This document shows positions 1,283 to 30,541 of a stretch of DNA of 32,116 nucleotides, in pieces. Every line of letters starts with the position of its first letter. The first letter of the stretch is position 1. The notes below the pieces were generated by a model. The model was not told the DNA's origin, did not search any database, and saw only the letters and a program-made list of their open reading frames with translations. Source of the stretch: Sphaeroforma arctica JP610 (Eukaryota). The translations under genes and the position numbers were made by a program. The DNA lies in contig NW_014040057.1 of the NCBI RefSeq assembly GCF_001186125.1, forward strand, positions 1 through 32,116, given 5' to 3'.

Positions 1283-2601
1283 AACAGGACAAAATTCCTT
1301 GGACCTGAAATTTACAACAGAACGGGACAAAACCGAATTCAACATTGTTGAACTACAATTGCAATTGTCAAATCAAACGATCATATTTTACATATTTAGC
1401 CTTCTTTTCTTCTTGTTGTGTATATTTAGTTTAGAAGGCTATGAAACGATATATTTTTATAAATACTATTCAGAAGTATGGACCCATGAATTCACGCTCA
1501 CAGGTTTATTACAGAACATTGGCACTCTCTAGTCTGAATTGTTGTATTCTATTTCAGGTGATAGGTAGGTGTAGATTATGTACCGAAAACTGATACTTGA
1601 CTGTTGTATCGGTAAAGATTTTTTTTGCGCAGTGTACACGCTTAATAGTCCGGTACTTGGACCAAAGTCGCCATACGTGGGCCCATAAATATCGAACCTA
1701 CCTTTGCGAATGGACCGGATGCGCTTTTGGACATGGGCTCGGGAGTTAATAATTTTATAGTGACGGGTTTTGTATAGACAAAGTCTATATATATAGTATT
1801 TTTAAATATGTATAAAATATATCTGCAGACTGCAGACTGCAGACCTAAGCTCAATACGATTTGCCTATATGCGATAAACTTCAAACGTAAACGCAAAAGG
1901 TTTGGTTTTTTAAGCGTTTTTTAAAGTATATCGGGGGCAAATCAACTATGAAAATTTTCCAAATGTGTACCTGAAAATTGACCTTTTTTAATGAAGAGGC
2001 GATTTGAAACTATTCACAACCGACACAGTGAAGAATAGGACAATTCATGACAGTTAGGCCGCCTCAAAAAATGTACTTATTTGTAAACCCATAAGACTCC
2101 CCGATATACTTTACAACGCTTAAAAAACAAACTTTTTGCGTTTACGTTTAAAGTCTATCGCATACAGGCAAGCCGTTTTGAGCTTAGCCCTGGGGCCCTG
2201 GAGGCCTGGCCCTTGCACTGTGCAGAGCACAGAAAATAGAGTTAAATAACTGAAAACTCCAGAGTACACTCCAGAGTCGGATATCCTACATTCCTGTCGA
2301 TAACCGAACCACGGATTGTCGACAATCATTCAAACACATTGTGAATGACGAATCACACACACAGTCTCTCTGGTCTACTCTTTTAGTCTCTAAAATTTCA
2401 CTCTCTCTATCTTGGTCTCTCCCTCCTTCGGTAACTCCTTCCTCGCAGTGACTCGATTCCTCAGTGAGAACCCCCAGTCCCCCACCAGGAGGCCCCCACC
2501 AAAGGCTCTAGCCCTAGAAGGGAGTCGGGACTTGGGACTCTAGACACTCTTCCCCCTATGTCTCTGTTGTAAATTTCAGGTCCAAGGGATTTTGTCCTGT
2601 T
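1283..2601. repeat. 39-bp inverted repeat pair (1283-1321 / 2563-2601), probable remnant of a non-autonomous DNA transposon
   Basis: aacaggacaaaattccttggacctgaaatttacaacaga is the reverse complement of 2563-2601 with 1 mismatch. The core ccttggacctg recurs near 2802-2812. Confidence 0.6.
1845..2187. mobile_element. MITE/foldback-like element with ~90-bp imperfect terminal inverted repeats
   Basis: 1845-1936 (ctaagctcaatacgatttgcc...aaagtatatcgggg) is the imperfect reverse complement of 2099-2187. The ~160-bp spacer has no recognisable coding content. Confidence 0.7.
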
Positions 2602-4095: not shown

Positions 4096-5742
4096 CTAAA
4101 CTTTCTGATCTGCGTACCAACAGTGCAGAAAATTCTTCAAACTTACTTACTAATGAGGAACAACCTTTGGCTATTACCTTACCAAATAATAAACATAAGG
4201 CACCTACATCGGAAATGATTAATGGACTAAATACTAAACGACATAGAGTACAACATGAGTCTTGAACTCGTACATATAGGCACATACATACTCGATAAGC
4301 CATGACCGAAACCGTTTTACTTTCATACCTTCACGGACGTCCATAGTTCTAAAATCTACTGAGGACTATGTATAAATACGGCCTCCAGTCAGTCTAAAAT
4401 ATCAAGATCAAATGAGATAACACATTGTTTATTTATTTAAATTTATAGAAAAATTATTACAAGTTATTTTTCCAATATTTCCATAGGTGTTCTAAATTCA
4501 CTTTGATGGCTCCAATAGTCTGAATATTTGGTATGACTATTTTAGTTGGACTTGTTTGAGACAATAGTGGATGTAGGATATTATAAACTAAGTTTTATAA
4601 TCTCTGAACTATTACTTACAGATTTTGGTCTTCCCGTCAATCTCCAAAATCCAATGTCTTTTTCTTTTTTTAACTCTTCTTCAGATGGAACTTTATTTAT
4701 ATTAGCTAATGTATTAACTTGACTTACGTTCTTATGTCTATCTACAAATTAAGCATATGGTCACGAACACCTAGTACTTCTAGTGAAAATTATTCAATAA
4801 AGAACAGCTAGAGGTACATCCTGTGTGATCTAGGATATTAAGGCTCTTACCAAGAGGCAGTCCTAATCATTCCTACACAAGCTACCACTGCTAAATCCAA
4901 ATTGACTTAAATTGTATCTTAGTTTATTTAAAACATACTTTAAAACATGGAAATGTCCATCGAAGTTTACACAACGCAGTTCTCAACGCAAAACATTTCA
5001 GCATCACGGACTTGTACCTTACACAAAATGGCGCGCAAATACATCTTAACAAACACCCAGTTCCAGCACTGTCTTTCAGAGAACTTCAGTGGAAGTGGGA
5101 TTATCAATTGGATAGAGTTCCTGTAGTTTGGGGTGAAGTGGGAGCACAACACACTAAGTGTGTATGCACAAATAGCGAAGAGGTATGTGGTGAGGATATT
5201 TCAAGTACAGATGATATATTCTTACCATGCAATGTTGACGATGTGACCAAAAAAACTAGTATGCGATGATGGTTCCCGAATAAGGCTTGCACAGCGTATA
5301 TGAGTGCGAGCTATAGAAGAAAAGCGTTCAACTATTCGGATTCACAAACATCACTTCCATCCTTCAATATTTAACACAAATGCGAAGACACGAACACGAC
5401 TGAATTATGATGGTATTCTCCATTTCAAACCATATAGCTTATCGGATGAAATCTCGCCATGACTCACAGATACTTCTAGTAGCAGTCAAACCAACACACC
5501 TCGTTCATGTCCGGAGAAACGGCGTATTCTAGCACCCAGAAAGGATAGTTCACAGCTTAGACAGAATAGAACAACAGTAACATCAAACCAAACCAACGAT
5601 GTGTTCACTCCGATTCTGCGCACACATGCGCATGTTTTACCAATATCAGTACCCTCATCGAGCAACAACACAACACCCACTTCAATACCTGAGTCACGAG
5701 AGTACTTCATCTGTTTGCTGACAAAGGACTGTTTCTGTTTAG

Positions 5743-5963
5743 TGTGATCAGAATACAAGTACATAGGTTTTAGTTGTTTATTTTAGTTTTTTTACAGTTT
5801 ATCAGAATAATCTGATAAACTTAGTTTTTGCTGACTATTACAGCACATGACTTGTGACTCACTTTTAGAGTCACTAATTTTACAATTACTAATAAATGAA
5901 CAACGTCTCCCTCTCTACGGATAGAACGTTGCGATACAGTTATTGGAGCGTTCGTTTACCACA
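5743..5963 (+). repeat. 5' LTR of element A (221 bp)
   Basis: Starts TGTGATCAGAATAC and ends TTTACCACA. Matches 12726-12956 with roughly 14 substitutions plus small indels by eye. Confidence 0.93.
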
Positions 5964-6146
5964 TTTTTAATTTACCAATGAAGTTGTGAGTTTATTGGTA
6001 ATTAGGAAATATGCTACTTTATAATAATTGAATGAAATTTATTAGATTGTTCTACAGGAATACAACGGACGAAGAAAAAGAACACCGATTGTTATAATAG
6101 CGGAAGTAAGATGGCGCGACAAAATGACGAAATCTTTCAAAATCTA

Positions 6147-6598
6147 CCCGCGGTAGAAGACGATAGTGGGTACACAAGTAGTGATGCAAGTGCCACAATG
6201 CCATCGTTGATGTCGAGTAGTGGCAGCGAAGAGGAAGAGACGCTGAGACCGAACGATCAGCACGACCGATGGAATCAGCAAAAGATATCTGAAGTGAACA
6301 ATGGACGCTTCAGGCTCAATAGAAGCAGTATGGCTAGACAGCTCGAACGTTTCAGGCTTCCTAGACAGGTATCCCGCGGTAGAAGACGATAGTGGGTACA
6401 CAAGTAGTGATGCTAGTGCCACAATGCCATCATTGATGTCGAGTAGTGGCAGCGAAGAGGAAGAGACGCCGAGACCGAACGATCAGCACGACCGATGGAA
6501 TCAGCAAAAGGAATCTGAAGGGAACAATGGACGCTTCAGGCTCAATAGAATCAGTATGGCTAGACAGCTCGAACGTTTCAGGCTTCCTAGACAGGTAT
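6147..6598 (+). repeat. 226-bp tandem duplication (6147-6372 / 6373-6598)
   Basis: Two near-identical copies beginning cccgcggtagaagacgatagtggg. The duplication frameshifts the ORF that starts at ATG 6111. Confidence 0.95.
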
Positions 6599-8169
6599 CT
6601 AACTTTACTGTGGCTCCAAGAACGGAGGCAAACAATGACACTACGACCAAACCCAAGAAGCCCACGACCGAACCCAAGAAGCAATCGAATCAGGAACAGA
6701 CATCTGAAGTATAAGAACGAAATCAGCAGGACAAGAAGGACCAAACGGCCAAGACGAGGGTCCAGTCAGACGATCAGTTAAGTAGAAACGATGGTGCAAA
6801 ATAGTTTGGTGATTATATGTTGTAGAAACAAATAGTATGGGTGAAATTGTGGGTTAGATATCGAATTAGAACCCTATTCTGGAAATATTCTTGGTTAGAG
6901 GATGCTCTGTAGAAATTGCATGAGAGAAATGGAACCAGTGTATATGGTGAGTAAGATCTAAGGGGTTGTATGCATAGAAGCAATCGGGAATAGAATTAGC
7001 AATGTTGCTCCTACTGTAGATGGGCCAATGAGATATAATACTACAATAAATACGCCCTAACTCTAGACATAGACAAAGGGAAGAGTTAGGTAGTTCGCAA
7101 TGTCCCAGTTAGAACTGAAAGGGATTAAAACGAAGGTTATAAAGCAAGTAAGGACACAAAGAACAAGTCAGCGTAAATAATTATAGATATATACTATAAT
7201 ATCATAGGCATAGTACGTTACTAACGTGGTATGAGAGATTCTTCTTGACAAAATTGAGAGATCGAAGGGATAGAGAGTATGTACATATTTAAATGGTACC
7301 CAGGTACATTGAACAATGAGGTTAGCAATAAGATCGTGGAACGATACGGACTAATAGTACAATTTGAGTCTTACTGTAAATCAAAGAACCACCTTAGGAG
7401 TTACAGTACATAGACAAAGATGATATCTGGTAAATTAGGGGATGTCGAGGTAAGAATTGTATAATACACAGTTAGAATCCACAGAGGCACTAGGAACTAC
7501 TTGCCTAAGCAGAACTTTGTATTAGAGATGCTCGAAAGAAAGTACCAAGCAGGATCTAGAGGTAAACAGAGCAGTCCGTAGGGCACGACAGGCCGACAAT
7601 AGGCAGTTATATACCAATAACCGCAACGGCACATGTAGCTGCACAAGGGAGTAAGATTAGCAAAGGAAGGGGAGTAAAGCGAGAGCGGTGGAGCTCTCTA
7701 AGGAGCAAAAGTATGTCGCCGAAGAAGGATGTGACTCCACTAGGAGGTTGGAGTAGCACCCAAGGAGTGTAGGGTGAACCCCGACAATTATTTCATCGAA
7801 GGATATACGGCACCATAGTCTGCTGGAGGCATGAGCAGGATTCATGTACTATTGTATCACTCTGAAAAGGAACGTAGTGAAGGGCACGGAATAAATCTTT
7901 CCTGGAAAACAGTGTCGATACTTGCTGAGATGAGAAACGATCTCTAGGACGGAGAAGTATTTATACCCGACCTATTTCGAGGACGTTTACATACATTTCC
8001 AAACCTCCATTGAACCACACAACGTACTATTATGTACAACTTACGTCAAAGCCGTAGGTAGCAACATCTGACCCCTGAACGTCGGGAGGAAGACAACATA
8101 GACCGTCGAGGGACTAAGCGCCACTAGTCTGTCACGGACCATACCAGCCAACGAGCTGAGAACGGACGG

Positions 8170-10017
8170 ATGGAACTACAGAATGGAAAGATTCATCACC
8201 AAGCAGCGACTAACATTAGACGGGCATCCAAGACACCCAGGGGTGATATCAGCCTAACGAAGGAAGACGTGGTAATTAATGACGAGGCCAAAGGAGATCC
8301 CGACCTGCGTGCGGACAGGGGGCAGTCCATTACTGGTGATCATGTAGCTAGTAGTGGACTGCCCTCTTGTTCGTCTTCGGGTATTTCTGGAGCCTCATCT
8401 TCCGGTAACGAGCAACCACGCCTCCCACCTAATAAGCGTAGGCGTCGCCGCCGTCGTTCCAACAACAAGGGCACGGTGCAGGGCCAGTCGTCAACACAGA
8501 AGCTAACCGAACTCATGGCACAACAACAATCGCTCTTGGAGAAGTACGAACAAAGGCTGAAGCGTACATCTTCAGAACGGCCTACGACAATGTTGTCCGC
8601 GCACGAAGCGTTGACTAGCCCACATACACGGGGGCATTGTCTCCGAAGAGGAAGAGACTTTGTCGTCTCTGGAGGAGGCTCTGTCATTCCAAGAATTCGC
8701 ACGTGAGCAGGTGTTGGCCAAAAAAAAAACCACATGGGCAGGAAGCGCTCAAGAACAGGCAGGACCAGATGAGTACGACCTATCGCCAACAACAACAGCG
8801 ACAATCATTCGAGAGGGCAGCAACCAGTGAGCATGTACAGACGTCTAAGCGAGCGGAGACGACGTCGCTCACACCTCCACCCACACCGGCGAGTATTGAG
8901 AAAGTCGACAGGTACTACACGCACGTATGCTACACTTGAGCGACGAGTTATGCCAAGCAATAGAGGATAATAATACGGCTCGAGCTGAAGCTCTTAGGGA
9001 AGCGATCGAAACGCTTCGAGCCACGCTAGAGTCCCGTCCAGTGGAAAAGCGTCCGGTACCATCACCTCGTACATGGCCGGATTGGCCCTCGAATATATAC
9101 CACCTCCACGGCATCATAGAACGGGACATGAAGGGAGCTCTACTGGAGGCTTTAAGAACGCGCATATCGCAGAGTTAGATGATATTTGGAGCCTTACATG
9201 ATTCCACAAGATATTATCTTACTTTACGGCTGAGAAATCAACATTGGATTACATACGTGACAATTCTGAACGATTGAAGATGTGGACGCCACAACTACAA
9301 ATCGAACAGATTTGCTTGCACGAGACTCAAGGCACTGTTGATCCCGCGTTTCGTAAGCTTGCCAAGGGCCACAACCGCAACATGCACACCCCTATTACGG
9401 AACAAATGACACAGCTCATGGAGAACCACAGGAGGGCACGTGAACAAAGCCAGACGGATGCAGACTTCCAACAGAATTTATTAAACCACTGCATTGTTCA
9501 ACTGTTGGAGGAAGCTCTCAACGGCCGTACGTATGAACGCACTCTACAATTGCATCCCAAATGGCAGTTAATGAAGACTCACGAGCTTCTACAGTTGTTG
9601 AGTCCCGACATTCAGGACGCACAGCAGCGCACTGCGGCGCGACTCCAGAACCGTAATAATCGCGAAGGCCCACCAAGTAATGGGGCTCGTGACTACACCA
9701 ATAGCCGCCCTAACCCGCAGACAGTTCGACGACAGTCACAGAACTGGGCACAGCGACCCCAGCCGACATTACCCCCAACGTGTGCTGGATGTCAGGCACA
9801 AGCTCCGCCAGGTTCACGTCATATTTCGCGATGTCACCATTTCCGAGCGTCGCCCCCAGGGGGTACGGACGGCAGGGCGCGGCCGTATGACGCCAACCGC
9901 ACATCAGGAGACGCACAACCGGCACACAGACCGTCCGCAACTCCAACCTTAGGACAGGGACAGCCCAACAACCTGGGCAGAGACTTGGTCACTACACGCC
10001 CGACTCCGCAAGTATAG
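8170..10017 (+). pseudogene. gag-like region of element A, fragmented by frameshifts and stops
   Basis: Position directly upstream of RT; basic NLS-like PPNKRRRRRRR; helical central part; CAGC-x9-H-x3-C knuckle-like motif near the C-terminus. Confidence 0.6.
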
Positions 10018-11528
10018 GTGAACGCGATTGCGAACGACGACAGTTTTGTACCACCATCAGCAGCTACAGAGGTACACATCAACACGANNNNNNNNNNNNN
10101 NNNNNNNCAGGCACCGAACACGACGGAACCCGCCGATGCACGTCAACGGCTGGCACAGGATTTAGAGGCGAACGCGCAGATTGCTGACAAGGCGCGATGT
10201 CGTCTGGAAGGGAGCGAAGTTACCATTTTGGTAACCCGTGAACAGGCGATGCACATGCGCAGATCAACGCGTAACTTTATATCCGACCGGTGGCTACCAT
10301 ACGTGGACGAGCAGGTGAAGAAGTGGTTGGCGGATTTGGTGATCACGAAACGGACGACACCGACGACTGTTAACCTCCCGCTCCTTGCGGTCTCGACGTT
10401 TGGTGCAGAAGAGAACGTGAAGAAGGTACGCGTATGTTTAGATATGCGTGCTGTCAACGCGCTTATTCTGGGCAACCAGTTCTTGATTCCCAAGGTCAAC
10501 GAACTTATCTCTCGCCTCAAGAGTAAGAAGTACTACACTACGCTGGATATATCGGCGGCATATAATAGGCTACCGATCCATCCCGATTCACAATACCTGT
10601 TTAGCTTTACACACGAGCGTTATCAGTACTCGTTTACATCGGAACCTTGAGCACAATACTGGACTACTTGCCGGTCCACCACTATATCGACGATATAGTT
10701 ATTGCCAGCGACGACTATGACGAACATATTCGAACGGTGAAGAAGGTGATTCAACGTTTAAGATACCACAGTTTTAAGCTCAACCCCGCCAAGTGTCACT
10801 TTGCTATTCCCGAAGTGATGATCTTAGAGAAGAAGGTGTCGGCACAATGCATAGATATTGATCATGAGAAGCAGACCAAGCTTATCGACTGGCCTACCCC
10901 ACTACGGTACAAAGACATAGCCTCTGCCTTTGGATTAGCAAATTATCTTCATGAACATCTCCCCAACTTTGCGAACACGGTTGCACCTTTGCGCGAGTTA
11001 TGCAAACTCAAACCGAAGGAGTTGATCGGCGATCGTTGGGAGAAAAGACATGCACAGGCGTGGCAGGCAATGAAGGATGCAGTTGTCAATGCAGTGGCGT
11101 TGCACTTTCCGGTCGACGGTATACCATTGAACTTGGAAACCGACGCTAGCGATTACGGTTTGGGGGGAGCGTTATTCCAATGGGTCGACGGGAAGAAACA
11201 TTATTTAATGTTCTTTAGCAAGACTCTGAACCATGCGCAACAGAACTACGCTACACCAATGAAGGAGTTACTAGCCTTGGTGTACGGGCTGACACATTTT
11301 AGGGAACATTTGGATGGGCAACGGTTTACCGTCTTTACGGACCACAAGGCCCTGGTGTATATGAATACACGGCTCAAGCTTAATCTGATGCTCGAGAGAT
11401 GGCACCATATTATAGCACCGTTCTACTCTACCATATCACATATACCAGGAGTTCCGGACATGTTGAGCAGAGTACATGAGGGGACAGCGGAGCATGACGA
11501 ACCTGTGATACTGTACACAGACTGTTGA
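10018..11528 (+). pseudogene. RT and RNase H of element A
   Basis: RVCLDMRAVN, YTTLDISAAYNRL, HYIDDIVIAS, LNPAKCHF, LETDASDYGLGGALFQ, NYATPMKELLALVYG, VFTDHKAL. The PFGL..FQR segment is deleted with a frameshift near 10648. Confidence 0.95.
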
Positions 11529-11915
11529 CAGTTATTCCCTAGTTACTTTGAACAAGCGCAACAACACTTCGGTCTGAACAATATAGATGTATTTGCGGAC
11601 CCGTCTAACGTTCAGCTTCGTCGATTTCGGACTAAAGACAATGGGGAAGGGGCGTTTGCCCACGACTGGTCGACAGTCGATGGATGGATGAACCCACCAT
11701 GAGAGAAGATACATAGAATGTTACGCAAGATATGGACCGATGGTGCGAGGGCAACGGTGTGTCTGCCATGGGTACCAAGGGCACCATGGTTTGACCTGTT
11801 CAAACAGTTGTTGCAATCACAACCAGTACTGGTCCCACGAACGCCACACACGTTCCTCAAGTACGCTAAGTATGCCTGTGGCAAGACGCCATGGGGATAC
11901 ACAGTGATTGCACGA
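11526..11915 (+). pseudogene. Dam-like DNA N6-adenine methyltransferase domain in Pol of element A
   Basis: In frame with RNase H: *QLFPSYFEQAQQHFGLNNIDVFADPSN...AFAHDWSTVDGWMNPP*EKIHRMLRKIWTDGARATVCLPWVPRAPWF...CGKTPWG. Both stops are TGA at positions that are Trp in element C. Confidence 0.85.
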
Positions 11916-12116
11916 GTGGGACCCCCTAACGGGTTCAAACTGGACCCACTGTTTTCCCAGCGACTTGGGTATGCAGAACCAAAACACACGGCGTACGTAA
12001 TGTGTTTAGATACCGCGCGAGAGATCTCGGTGGCAATGGCGGATCCAGAAGGTCAACCGGCATTTGAGCGGGCGACGCCAGAAGAACAACAACGCCGTAC
12101 GCGACTCACACAAGCG

Positions 12117-22238: not shown

Positions 22239-24227
22239 GGTGCTGTTTGTCAGCTCGTTCGGTGGGACACTGGCCGTCAACTTTGGTTTGGTTCCATCTG
22301 GATATATCTTCCTCAGATGGGATGATATCTATTCAAATTTCCAGGTATGCTTAGTGATGTCCGGATTGAACCTTGAGCAACGAACTTTTATCACGCACCT
22401 CTGGTTTGAAAATTTTTTGTTCATAGAGTTATTCCAGGAACATTTTCTGGTTCTGAAACTCGATTCGACAACCCTGGTACTATTCGACGAGTGCTGGATA
22501 CTAGGATAGTTGTCACATATACATGTCTTGCCACCCAGTTGCAGTGGATCTCTAAACTATATAATTTAAACTTGTTATTGTTCTGAATCGTCGTTGTAGG
22601 TTCCCCTGTATATCGTGTGTATCGAACATATCGAACATTTATAGCCCAGAAGCATGCATTATTTGAGTTTGTACGTGTCGGATACGAACCCTGTCCTCGA
22701 TGTATTGGGCAAGACCACTAACGTATTGCGCTTACAATTGTTCTTCCACCTCAGATTTGGCGATTCTTCACGCCGTTCCTCTTCTATGGTAAGCTGGGAT
22801 TCAATTTTATAGTACATATGATATTTTTATATCAGTACTCGAAACTTCTAGAGACGGAGACGTACGAAGGAAAACCTGCGGACTATCTTTGGTTGCTGAT
22901 TGTGAATTCCTCTCTACTCATTGTATGTGCGAGCAAGCTTGTGTTCGGCCCATTCTACTCGAATGTTTATCTCGACTTAATAATACTCCACCTGTATTGT
23001 TGTCATTTGATTGCTATTAATATCCTGAGACGGGCGCGCCTTGAGTGGCAACCTACCTTGCACATCGACTATACATTAGTAATAAAGTCTCAGAAAGTAG
23101 CTCATAGCACATGCAGTTTTGCAGATTGTTTAGAGTGCCTGGCAGTCTTATACATGCCATACCTTCAATGTAGACCTCAGGGAACATATACAGTACTGCG
23201 AGGGATTGTGGATGAGCTTGCTCAGTGTTCACATGCTGTAGGGAGTGTATGTGCTGTTGCGTCCATGCTCAGGATTGAATTGTACTGTATGGCGCAGCCT
23301 AAGATCTACAAGCGTAGCGATAGCATGTTCGTAGTTTGCACGCGCACTCTATTTGATCGTTGAATGTCATCAATTACAGTCTCTTGCACCTCTTCTTCTT
23401 ATCAAGACTTGACATTTATGTACTCGTAGTAGACCATGGACAACTAAATCAATATTTTGGCTGTTTGACGACGTTCTGCAATACACCTTTCTGTCTCGTT
23501 TCAAGTGCTGAGTACCTCATTCTGTTTACCACAGTTCACCACTTTTCTTCTCCCATTTTTTATATAATTGTTAAGAAATAGCGGTCAATTTAGTTCATTA
23601 TGTATGAAACATGTTTGAATAGTTGGCTAATCGCGCATCTCGTCCCTATTTCAGATTTTTGGATTTCTGTGGCCGCTGCGTGTCCTGTCCATCTCTCTGC
23701 TGCTGTCATTGGTCTATGTTTGGTGTCAACTCAACAAGGACACGGTGGTCAGCTTCTTCTTTGGTCTTCGATTCAAGGTTAGTGCTTCGTTTAAGATAAG
23801 AAACCTTCGTCTGGTGTGTTGTGTTTCCTGGTTTCGTGCTCTACCGTCTCCTTATATCTAATTTGCTTGCTCTGTATTCCACTCACATAACTGCTGCGTA
23901 CACAACATCCAATTGTAATACTTTATTGGATTTCCCGTGCACACTAAGCGTTCGCACTAAATCTCTGATCGGCAAACCACCGCTGATGGTCGTACATTCC
24001 AATCATAAAACAACAGGCTCAGTATTTCCCGTGGGTACTGATGGGCTTTAACATCCTGATGGGTGGATATCCTCTGCTGGAATTCATTGGTGTGATGATC
24101 GGGCACAGTTTCTGGTTCATTACGTACTACTTCCCAGAGAATAATGGTTGGAGTCCGCTACCTACACCCGAATTTCTGTATGTTGTTCTACAATAATGTT
24201 TCACTCCGCGTGGCTTATTTTCGGTAT

Positions 24228-29065: not shown

Positions 29066-30541
29066 ATGGTGGACGATACGTCACTAAAGTCCACATCAGA
29101 CCGGACAGGGTCCGTATCTACATTCTTGCAGAAGGTGTTGGCGATGGTGGAAGAGTCCGAAAGCAGCAACTTGGTAGCCTGGACTCCTAACGGAGAAAGC
29201 TTCCGGGTTTACGACCCCGTCCCATTTGCTAAAGAAGTGCTTCCGCGGTTTTTTAAACACTGTAACTTCTCCAGTTTTGTGAGGCAGTTAAATATGTATG
29301 ATTTCCACAAAGTCATGGATGTTCAGCAGGGGGCACTGTCGGCAGCCAGGTCAAAGGAGTGGGAGTTCATTCACCCAAATTTTAAACGCGGGCAGGCCCA
29401 ACTGCTAGCCTTGGTGAAGCGCAAAGCAGGGTCCACAGAGGGTACCAAACCCAAGGGCGAGAACTTGAAAAGGGTTATGAGTGAGGTGCAAGCAATGCAG
29501 GAACAGCAGGCCGTCGTGGCACAAAAGTTGGAGCACCTGGACACCGACAACCGCATCATGTGGAATGAGATGGTGAAGCTTAAGAGCAGACACCAGCAAC
29601 AGCAACAAACTATCAATAGAATCTTGTATTTCTTGAGCTCTATATATTCGTCGGACAATCTGCCGAATCAGCTGAGAGACACGGACGATGTACTGCAACT
29701 GCAAGGCCAGGGACAGAACAACGGGCCTGGAGGGCAGTCGAACACATCGTCGTTATTACAGAACACCCCTTCCTTCAGCAATGCGCGTGGTAATCCAATG
29801 CAGCCGCCGTCCAGCTACAACAATCTGGCGGAGCAGCTTATGGAGTACACCAATGTAAGTAACAACGGGGGTGGGGGTATGATGAACGCATTAGGAAATA
29901 GCCCTGCACTCGCTGGAGGGGGTAATGGTGGTGTGGGCAATAGGTCGAACTCGGGTTTGGGCAACAACGTTATTAACAATACCGGTCTGGGTTCAAACAT
30001 CCCTATGGGTGGCAACAATTCGGGGGCGGGGGGTAATAACACCTCGATGATGTCCGGTAATAATGCAATGAACGTCAATAATCCAGGGTTAAGCAACAAT
30101 AACGGTAACATGGCTGCGGTGATGAGGTCAGGGAATGGTATAGGGGTAAATAACTTGGGTAGTAACCAGGGTATGGGGGGGAACAATTTCTCGGGCTTGC
30201 AAAATGACAACGTGAACTACTTGAATAACCGCAGTTCAATCAATAACTCATCGTCTCAGAATAACCTGGGCAATTCTAATTCTAATAACCTAGGATCACG
30301 CGCAAACGGTGCGAGACTGTCGGTGGGCGGCGGTTCGGGTATGGGCAATGACTCTAAGATGAATTTAGCGCAACACAATTCGAATATGGGCCAAAACAAT
30401 GCAGGATTGAACGGATCGAATACACCGTATGGTATGGGAGGAAATAATAATAACATGCCGTACAATACAGCCTCCCCGAATTTGCCCTATACCGACTTCC
30501 AACTGGCGAATATGGGAATGGGGGATGGCCAACAGAACTGA
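29066..30541 (+). CDS. HSF: Heat-shock transcription factor (HSF DNA-binding domain, HR-A/B coiled coil, Asn/Gly-rich C-terminus), 491 aa, intronless
   Basis: FLQKV...W..NGESF...FAKEVLPRFFKHCNFSSFVRQLNMYDFHKV...WEFIHPNFKRG...VKRK; heptad region ending LKSRHQQQQQTINRILYFL; strong Kozak context gcaccATGG. Confidence 0.97.
   Translation: MVDDTSLKSTSDRTGSVSTFLQKVLAMVEESESSNLVAWTPNGESFRVYDPVPFAKEVLPRFFKHCNFSSFVRQLNMYDFHKVMDVQQGALSAARSKEWEFIHPNFKRGQAQLLALVKRKAGSTEGTKPKGENLKRVMSEVQAMQEQQAVVAQKLEHLDTDNRIMWNEMVKLKSRHQQQQQTINRILYFLSSIYSSDNLPNQLRDTDDVLQLQGQGQNNGPGGQSNTSSLLQNTPSFSNARGNPMQPPSSYNNLAEQLMEYTNVSNNGGGGMMNALGNSPALAGGGNGGVGNRSNSGLGNNVINNTGLGSNIPMGGNNSGAGGNNTSMMSGNNAMNVNNPGLSNNNGNMAAVMRSGNGIGVNNLGSNQGMGGNNFSGLQNDNVNYLNNRSSINNSSSQNNLGNSNSNNLGSRANGARLSVGGGSGMGNDSKMNLAQHNSNMGQNNAGLNGSNTPYGMGGNNNNMPYNTASPNLPYTDFQLANMGMGDGQQN

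What the first reader, a model, noticed from the sequence alone, without database searches (positions are those of the whole stretch)
11526..11915. Second, diverged Gypsy family has the same MTase at the same position, hidden by two TGA stops
Seen: reading through TGA 11526-11528 and TGA 11700-11702 gives one frame from 10647 to 12278, joining RNase H, IDVFADPSN, WMNPP* (AAC CCA CCA TGA, i.e. a former NPPW), TVCLPWVPRAPWF, TFLK and ACGKTPWG to the integrase zinc finger. It aligns motif by motif with element C but differs at many intervening residues. Inference: the MTase is an old, selectively retained module of a retrotransposon clade rather than a one-off capture. Here it lies inside an element with direct-repeat LTRs, a PPT and a TSD, which argues against DIRS.
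Basis: partly seen in the sequence, partly recalled or inferred. Interest (0 to 1): 0.85.

Follow-up and report, generated by a model that had tools for sequence, protein, structure and literature searches.

The report
Broken methylase-carrying Gypsy retrotransposon copy
This is a broken copy of a Gypsy-type jumping gene, likely from an ichthyosporean (a single-celled relative of animals), whose enzyme chain carries a conserved adenine-methylase-like domain that likely marks the element's own new copies; this kind of element was described in a 2026 preprint.

Summary
Observation confirmed. Frame 10605-12278 has only the two TGA stops and runs RT end, RNase H, Dam-like domain (PF05869), integrase zinc finger, inside a 7.2-kb element with TG..CA LTRs, a G9 PPT and a 4-bp TSD. 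The stops are decay of this copy: other copies in 4 of 4 laid runs mostly read a sense codon there. Differences among those copies are 24 of 33 synonymous (28% expected), so the domain is under purifying selection. It is 38-40% identical to intact family-C Pol and falls in a supported Gypsy-Dam clade with Sphaeroforma and Abeoforma proteins. That is the 'Ichthyosporean DAM-LTR' lineage of a May 2026 preprint, so the kind is known; this scan also found DAM-LTRs before in other genomes. Copy A is dead (RT and integrase deletions, frameshift). Additions: selection evidence; two deeply split families in one genome; a cryptic, cage-less chromodomain in family C and the Abeoforma element, which the preprint's text says this lineage lacks; and a closest solved fold of PCIF1 (RNA cap methylase), which keeps an RNA substrate open. 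Catalysis is untested.

The parts
5739..5742 (+). Target-site duplication TTAG, left copy
5743..5963 (+). 5' LTR of element A, TG..CA, 221 bp
5964..6008 (+). A/T-rich hairpin directly after the 5' LTR, where a tRNA primer-binding site is usual; role unknown
   Evidence: -13.7 kcal/mol, z -3.0, 1 of 200 shuffles as good; no 7-12 nt complement inside the LTR
9202..10017 (+). Gag-like ORF remnant with a Cys/His cluster near its end (lead only)
   Evidence: no Pfam hit; atlas hits mixed, several gag/CCHC clusters at 0.87-0.90
10088..10107 (.). Scaffold gap (20 N) where the protease is expected
   Evidence: relatives carry a protease
10270..10640 (+). Reverse transcriptase, N-terminal part; about 28 residues missing after 10640
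   Evidence: RVT_1 E 8e-6; gap between P0002 residues 344 and 373; loose ends at 10640 in 3 of 4 runs
10648..11420 (+). RT end (YIDD 10683-10694), connection, Gypsy-type RNase H (11124-11420)
11517..11918 (+). Dam-like (PF05869) N6-adenine methyltransferase-fold domain; motif I region IDVFA, motif IV NPP plus stop
11526..11528 (+). TGA stop 1, particular to this copy; relatives have Trp here
11700..11702 (+). TGA stop 2 in motif IV, particular to this copy; relatives have NPPW
12117..12236 (+). Integrase zinc finger, degenerate
   Evidence: Integrase_H2C2 E 0.029
12262..12440 (+). Start of integrase core in a shifted frame, stop at 12346, cut off by a deletion at 12440
   Evidence: loose ends at 12440 and a one-base difference at 12259 in other copies
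12716..12724 (+). Polypurine tract (G9)
12726..12956 (+). 3' LTR, 231 bp
12957..12960 (+). Target-site duplication TTAG, right copy
19656..20087 (-). Element C: Dam-like domain after RNase H (motif IV reads NPSW in this copy)
18450..18623 (-). Element C: degenerate chromodomain at the end of the integrase
   Evidence: Pfam Chromo E 0.0013, below cut-off; fold
16363..16905 (+). Element B: truncated RT, sister to family A; ends before RNase H, so MTase status unknown
   Evidence: 99/97

Best explanation
Element A is a dead copy of a Ty3/Gypsy LTR retrotransposon whose Pol carries a Dam-like methyltransferase-fold domain between RNase H and integrase, and in working copies this domain likely methylates adenine in the element's own newly made DNA, which would help new insertions stay transcribed. 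Shown here: the anatomy; that the two stops belong to this copy and not the family; purifying selection on the domain among family-A copies; an intact NPP[W/F] motif in 18 of 22 clade rows; membership of a Gypsy-Dam clade that holds Sphaeroforma and Abeoforma proteins (about 0.95 confident). Inferred: one ancient transfer from a DIRS-type element, then inheritance as families A and C diverged. Inferred from the preprint's model and not tested here: the domain travels in the particle with RT, meets single-stranded or RNA:DNA intermediates (it has no target-recognition domain of its own), deposits 6mA, and host AMT1 keeps the mark after integration, giving permissive chromatin (about 0.45).
For: Anatomy. 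Intact family-C relatives P0002/P0003 are single 1288-aa ORFs PR-RT-RH-Dam-H2C2-rve. Other copies read a sense codon at stop 1 in 99-100% and at stop 2 in 72-87% of summed contig depth in 4 of 4 runs. Differences that vary among copies: 24 synonymous of 33 (expected share 0.28, p 2e-7); differences particular to this copy: 0 synonymous of 7. 13 of 27 scanned hits have Dam followed by an integrase family. P0096 is named Sphaeroforma arctica, P0101 Abeoforma whisleri; both lie with A and C in a 98/92 clade. Model pLDDT 93 with a class I MTase fold, best match PCIF1. The preprint reports more 6mA and more transcription on DAM-LTR than on other LTR insertions in S. arctica and A. whisleri.
Against: The preprint's expression of representative eukaryotic DAM domains in dam-minus E. 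coli gave no added 6mA. The best structural match is an RNA enzyme, PCIF1 (Z 10.2, rmsd 2.8, 128 aligned), above E. coli Dam (7.6) and T4 Dam (7.4). Iyer et al. judged DIRS-type domains likely inactive. No ApT enrichment in element A (observed/expected 0.97). The 6mA link is a correlation that higher transcription alone could give. A and C are not resolved as sisters in the careful MTase tree and reach only 92/88 in the RT/RNase H tree, which had no Dam-less Gypsy rows, so a single capture is not proven. The selection count uses 40 of 57 table rows and only 11490-11780.
Confidence: 0.55

Rival explanations
1. Same element, but the domain is a PCIF1-like RNA methyltransferase that marks the element's own RNA (cap-adjacent adenine or the RNA strand of the hybrid) to aid stability, translation or packaging.
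For: The five Foldseek matches at E<=0.001 are all PCIF1/CAPAM, and rRNA m6A enzymes fill most of the next ranks; two DIRS-type hits also match Pfam PCIF1_WW weakly; Iyer et al. place DIRS MTases in the PCIF1 clade; it would explain the negative E. coli DNA assay.
Against: A shared fold shows no substrate; identity to PCIF1 is 12-16%. The sequence family is the phage DNA-methylase family PF05869, and the preprint's tree derives it from prokaryotic DAMs and links it to DNA 6mA and host AMT1. The 144-residue model covers only the catalytic part of the 482-residue PCIF1 chain.
Confidence: 0.23
2. The domain is kept as a non-catalytic module that binds nucleic acid, SAM or a host protein, and does not methylate.
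For: Negative heterologous assay; Iyer et al. call DIRS copies likely inactive; unchecked notes of this scan report Gypsy-Dam domains that lost the motif yet stay conserved.
Against: NPP[W/F] is intact in 18 of 22 clade rows; the four without it are A, C, P0100 and the long-branch P0133. The motif I aspartate and the two prolines are conserved in at least 90% of 75 aligned rows.
Confidence: 0.18
3. The TGA codons are read through or recoded, so copy A makes a working protein.
For: Both stops are TGA at positions where relatives have Trp.
Against: Other copies lack the stops; five further non-synonymous changes are particular to this copy; RT and integrase are deleted and frameshifted; LTRs differ by 6%.
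Confidence: 0.01
4. The MTase comes from a DIRS element nested in, or mis-assembled with, an ordinary Gypsy element.
For: RT-RH-MTase is the DIRS order; an N gap lies inside the element.
Against: RNase H, MTase and zinc finger share one frame; intact single-ORF relatives have the same order; no tyrosine-recombinase family in the ORFs scanned; the MTase groups with Gypsy rows.
Confidence: 0.02

Closest known systems
Ichthyosporean DAM-LTR lineage (Fernandez-Moreno et al., bioRxiv 10.64898/2026.05.21.726589; whole main text read, figures and supplements not seen)
   Same: Ty3/Gypsy Pol with a PF05869 Dam domain and Asn-Pro-Pro motif; hosts Pirum, Abeoforma, Sphaeroforma; A and C group with named Sphaeroforma and Abeoforma proteins.
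   Different: The text says this lineage lacks chromodomains; family C and the Abeoforma Pol end in a degenerate chromodomain. The text has no selection test and does not mention PCIF1. Whether family A itself is in their tables could not be seen.
DIRS1-type tyrosine-recombinase retrotransposons with an MTase domain (Iyer et al., PMC4738411, passages; de Mendoza et al., PMC5890265, passages)
   Same: Homologous Dam-like domain directly after RNase H; DIRS-like proteins are among the weaker hits of the profile search.
   Different: A has an integrase, direct TG..CA LTRs, PPT and TSD, and no recombinase was found.
PCIF1/CAPAM cap-specific adenosine N6-methyltransferase (PDB 6irw, 6irx)
   Same: Best solved fold for the model (Foldseek E 2e-5; Z 10.2).
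   Different: 12-16% identity; only the catalytic core is matched; substrate of the retroelement domain unknown.
Chromoviruses with group II chromodomains (PMC3350952, passages)
   Same: Chromodomain fold at the integrase end that keeps the central Trp and, in family C, lacks the first and third cage aromatics (alignment).
   Different: That paper reports group II only from plant elements; here it is in a holozoan protist clade, with a shortened loop. Deleted in copy A, so untested for family A.
KnitGypsy-Dnmt3 (PMC5890265, passages)
   Same: Gypsy Pol with a DNA methyltransferase under purifying selection.
   Different: Cytosine C5 enzyme, unrelated family.

Membership tests
Ty3/Gypsy LTR retrotransposon | Direct LTRs with TG..CA ends, TSD, PPT | tested here: met
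   linked across a 20-N gap
Ty3/Gypsy LTR retrotransposon | Pol order PR-RT-RH-IN | tested here: met
   RT-RH-IN order in A; protease only in relatives, hidden by the gap in A
Ty3/Gypsy LTR retrotransposon | Complete DDE integrase core | tested here: inconclusive
   cut off at 12440 in A; rve E 9e-13 in family-C relatives; no intact family-A Pol found
Ty3/Gypsy LTR retrotransposon | tRNA primer-binding site after the 5' LTR | tested here: inconclusive
   no TGG-type site; a hairpin lies there; one decayed copy only
DAM-LTR, ichthyosporean lineage | PF05869 Dam domain in an integrase-type Pol | tested here: met
   E 7e-6 in A (under Pfam's cut-off, within the preprint's 1e-5), E 4e-15 in P0002
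DAM-LTR, ichthyosporean lineage | Asn-Pro-Pro plus aromatic motif | tested here: met
   NPP plus stop in A; sense codon in other copies; 18 of 22 clade rows
DAM-LTR, ichthyosporean lineage | Dam domain groups with Sphaeroforma/Abeoforma/Pirum elements | tested here: met
DAM-LTR, ichthyosporean lineage | Ichthyosporean host | tested here: met
   window HSF: best hits 88% CFRG and 68% Ihof gene ids, fungi at most 55%; the meaning of the prefixes (Creolimax, Ichthyophonus) is recalled
DAM-LTR, ichthyosporean lineage | No chromodomain (descriptive statement in the preprint) | tested here: not met
   not met for family C and the Abeoforma Pol P0101; all scores lie under Pfam's cut-off, which likely explains the statement; region deleted in copy A
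DAM-LTR, ichthyosporean lineage | Raised 6mA and transcription on insertions | not testable with these tools
   reported in the preprint
N6-adenine methyltransferase (class I fold) | Rossmann-type SAM-binding fold with motif I and motif IV | tested here: met
N6-adenine methyltransferase (class I fold) | Methyl transfer to adenine | not testable with these tools
   needs an assay; published E. coli test negative
DIRS retrotransposon | Tyrosine recombinase in place of integrase | tested here: not met
   no recombinase family in the element ORFs scanned; integrase parts present
DIRS retrotransposon | Inverted or split terminal repeats, no TSD (recalled) | tested here: not met
   direct LTRs with TSD

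The most novel reading that the evidence does not exclude
The ichthyosporean DAM-LTRs are cryptic chromoviruses that carry a PCIF1-like RNA adenine methyltransferase plus a cage-less chromodomain: the enzyme marks the element's own RNA or RNA:DNA intermediate, not genomic DNA. This would explain the failed E. coli assay and be a transposon-encoded RNA-methylation system, kept under selection in several deeply split families of one genome.
Probability: 0.2. Interest if true: 0.72.

Novelty: already known. Interest (0 to 1): 0.3.

Why it matters
The kind of element is only months old in print and its enzyme has no shown activity, so independent evidence counts: purifying selection and an intact catalytic motif across families argue that the domain does something. 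Sphaeroforma and Abeoforma are cultured and have 6mA maps (per the preprint), so the substrate question (DNA, RNA or none) is directly testable, and the PCIF1-like fold says which substrates the failed assay missed. The hidden chromodomain would change how the lineage is classed. The copy itself is an ordinary dead insertion.

Tried and rejected
No whole genome is held for this window, so copies were compared only through assembled contigs of public runs. Word-index search for full-length family-A Pol: 0 of 720 candidates passed; only a decayed 146-aa family-A piece (P0100) came up. A-versus-C dN/dS: useless, third-position identity 38%, 10 of 24 four-fold sites alike. PDB sequence search with the MTase profile: nothing under E 0.8. 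No RNA holder listed on record for the stretch: nothing can be said on expression. Self-priming by pairing of the post-LTR bases with the LTR: no 7-12 nt complement found. ApT enrichment in the element: none. Quick MTase tree joined A and C at 83, but the careful tree left this open, so sisterhood is not claimed from it. A three-sequence chromodomain profile scored 9 of 20 targets at E<0.05 but P0002, P0003 and element C only at 0.13-1.3, and Pfam gave no Chromo row for P0003, P0260 or P0262. The wide structural search for the chromodomain model did not run. No tRNA genes in the window. Scan notes by place and by sequence: nothing. TGA recoding and DIRS nesting rejected (see rivals).

Full report
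Observation. The frame 10605-12278 holds only three stops: TGA 11526-11528, TGA 11700-11702 and the closing TAG. Read with X at the two stops it gives the end of RT, a Gypsy-type RNase H (E 6e-28), a Dam domain PF05869 (E 7e-6, 26.2 bits, under the curated cut-off of 28.1) and a degenerate integrase zinc finger (E 0.029). The match to element C is real: 130 of 370 residues identical, E 3e-74; the MTase alone scores 244 against at most 49 in 1000 shuffles.

Element. LTRs lie at 5743-5963 and 12726-12956 with TG..CA ends and 14 mismatches in 221 aligned bases; TTAG flanks both sides; nine G precede the 3' LTR. A 20-N gap at 10088-10107 covers the place of the protease, so the link between the two LTRs rests on the scaffold and the 4-bp TSD. 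The copy is dead for reasons beyond the stops: about 28 RT residues are missing at 10640 (loose ends there in 3 of 4 runs), and the integrase core starts in another frame, has a stop at 12346 and is cut off at 12440. No tyrosine-recombinase family matched the element ORFs scanned (most ORFs of 70 aa or more).

Host. The window's HSF gene is 88% and 68% identical to proteins with CFRG and Ihof ids (recalled as Creolimax and Ichthyophonus), against at most 55% for fungi. The top named MTase hit is a Sphaeroforma arctica protein. The host is an ichthyosporean, likely Sphaeroforma.

Are the stops a family trait? No. Contigs of four public runs were laid on 11490-11780. At stop 1, 99-100% of summed contig depth reads a sense codon; at stop 2, 72-87%, and part of the rest is one contig per run aligned with a compensating one-base gap. 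Relatives have Trp at both aligned positions. One contig of run X2 matches the window exactly over 11650-11780, so stop 2 exists as DNA, though that run may be the window's source; an assembly error at stop 1 is not excluded. Depth is not a copy number, and no contig spans the stretch.

Selection. The table showed 40 of 57 rows (the best supported). Classed against the window's codons, 24 of 33 rows that vary among copies are synonymous, against an expected share of 0.28 with strong transition bias (binomial p 2e-7); all 7 differences particular to this copy are non-synonymous, two of them the stops (Fisher p 6e-4). This is the pattern of a domain under purifying selection in working copies and neutral decay in this one. 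Limits: only the first two thirds of the domain, multi-hit codons not modelled, hidden rows not counted. Between A and C silent sites are saturated, so the split is old; identity to intact family-C Pol is 38-40% in the MTase, 52-54% in RNase H and 36-49% in RT.

Relatives. Two intact family-C Pols of 1288 aa read protease, RT, RNase H, Dam (E 4e-15 and 2e-14), zinc finger, integrase core. A profile of the A and C domains found 3602 proteins at E<=0.001, 150 listed. Of 27 that I chose for a Pfam scan (top-scoring or long), 13 have Dam followed by an integrase family, 2 have Dam ahead of RT, 1 carries phage-integrase domains. A careful tree of 54 MTase rows (the four A/C rows and the next best by score with enough coverage, plus two DIRS-like rows) puts A, C, the Sphaeroforma protein P0096 and the Abeoforma Pol P0101 in one 22-row group at 98/92, 18 rows labelled Gypsy and none DIRS; four other Gypsy rows fall outside; the branching inside is open and the root is a midpoint. 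An RT/RNase H tree of 19 rows joins A (with element B) and C at 92/88, and these with the Abeoforma group at 85/86; it had no Dam-less Gypsy rows. NPP[W/F] is intact in 18 of the 22 rows.

Fold. The model of the A domain (75-row alignment) has pLDDT 93. All five Foldseek matches at E<=0.001 are PCIF1/CAPAM; the wide search ranks PCIF1 first (Z 10.2, rmsd 2.8, 128 aligned), then RNA methyltransferases at 8-9, E. coli Dam 7.6 and T4 Dam 7.4. A fold gives no substrate, but it agrees with Iyer et al., who place DIRS MTases in the PCIF1 clade (PMC4738411, passages).

What is known. The preprint 10.64898/2026.05.21.726589 (whole main text read; figures and supplements not seen) defines DAM-LTRs and an ichthyosporean lineage in Pirum, Abeoforma and Sphaeroforma arctica, derives the domain from DIRS elements, reports more 6mA and transcription on these insertions, and found no methylation when domains were expressed in E. 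coli. Paper searches found no other description of this arrangement in the held library. Unchecked notes of this scan list 23 similar findings in at least 3 other genomes.

What this adds. (a) The selection evidence; the preprint's text has no such test. (b) Two old families in one genome with the domain at one place. (c) A cryptic chromodomain: the preprint says the lineage lacks one, but element C (18450-18623) hits Pfam Chromo at E 0.0013, the P0002 tail draws 28 of 30 atlas hits to Chromo clusters (score 0.91), the Abeoforma Pol scores E 5e-7 among 20 targets with a small profile, and the model of the C segment (pLDDT 78) matches chromodomain-bearing chains in all 40 listed rows, none at E<=0.001. 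In family C the first and third cage aromatics are absent, as in group II chromodomains (PMC3350952, passages). This region is deleted in copy A. The supplements may already show some of this. (d) The PCIF1-like fold as a reason to test RNA.

Mechanism. Most likely the domain is packaged as part of Pol and methylates adenine in the element's own replication intermediates, seeding 6mA that host AMT1 keeps (preprint model; inferred, about 0.45). RNA methylation (about 0.23) and a non-catalytic role (about 0.18) remain open.

Verdict. Real, correctly read, but a dead copy of a lineage already described. Novelty: already known. Interest 0.3, for the added evidence and the testable substrate question.

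Noticed in passing
window 5964-6008: Strong A/T-rich hairpin directly after the 5' LTR instead of a tRNA primer-binding site (z -3.0); may point to unusual priming, seen in one decayed copy only.
   Followed up: partly
window 6000-8100: About 2 kb of purine-skewed leader before the gag-like region, with a 226-nt tandem duplication (6147-6598, 97%); no Pfam family of note in its ORFs.
   Followed up: partly
window 13100-15120: Decayed PIF1-type helicase (E 1e-10) next to the 3' LTR, likely a Helitron-like remnant into which element A inserted.
   Followed up: no
window 15200-16905 (+): Element B: protease-like and RT remnant, sister to family A (99/97), truncated before RNase H and abutting an opposite-strand integrase piece.
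   Followed up: partly
window 16870-17731 (-): Integrase-core remnant of a further element with a roughly 146-149 nt repeat in its tail; no Pfam hit.
   Followed up: no
P0119, P0125: Unnamed polyproteins with endonuclease/phosphatase domain, Dam, RT, RNase H and integrase in one chain: an odd LINE-like/Gypsy mix, perhaps the Euglena-type elements of the preprint.
   Followed up: no
P0097-P0113, P0250: Many unnamed metagenomic Gypsy-Dam Pols fall in the same clade as the ichthyosporean elements, so the lineage is probably wider than the three named species.
   Followed up: partly
window 29066-30541 and 22722-23363: Host genes: heat-shock transcription factor with a long Asn/Gly-rich tail; Der1-like fragment.
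   Followed up: partly
window 1840-2192: 71-nt inverted repeat (86%) 211 nt apart, possibly a small DNA transposon.
   Followed up: no
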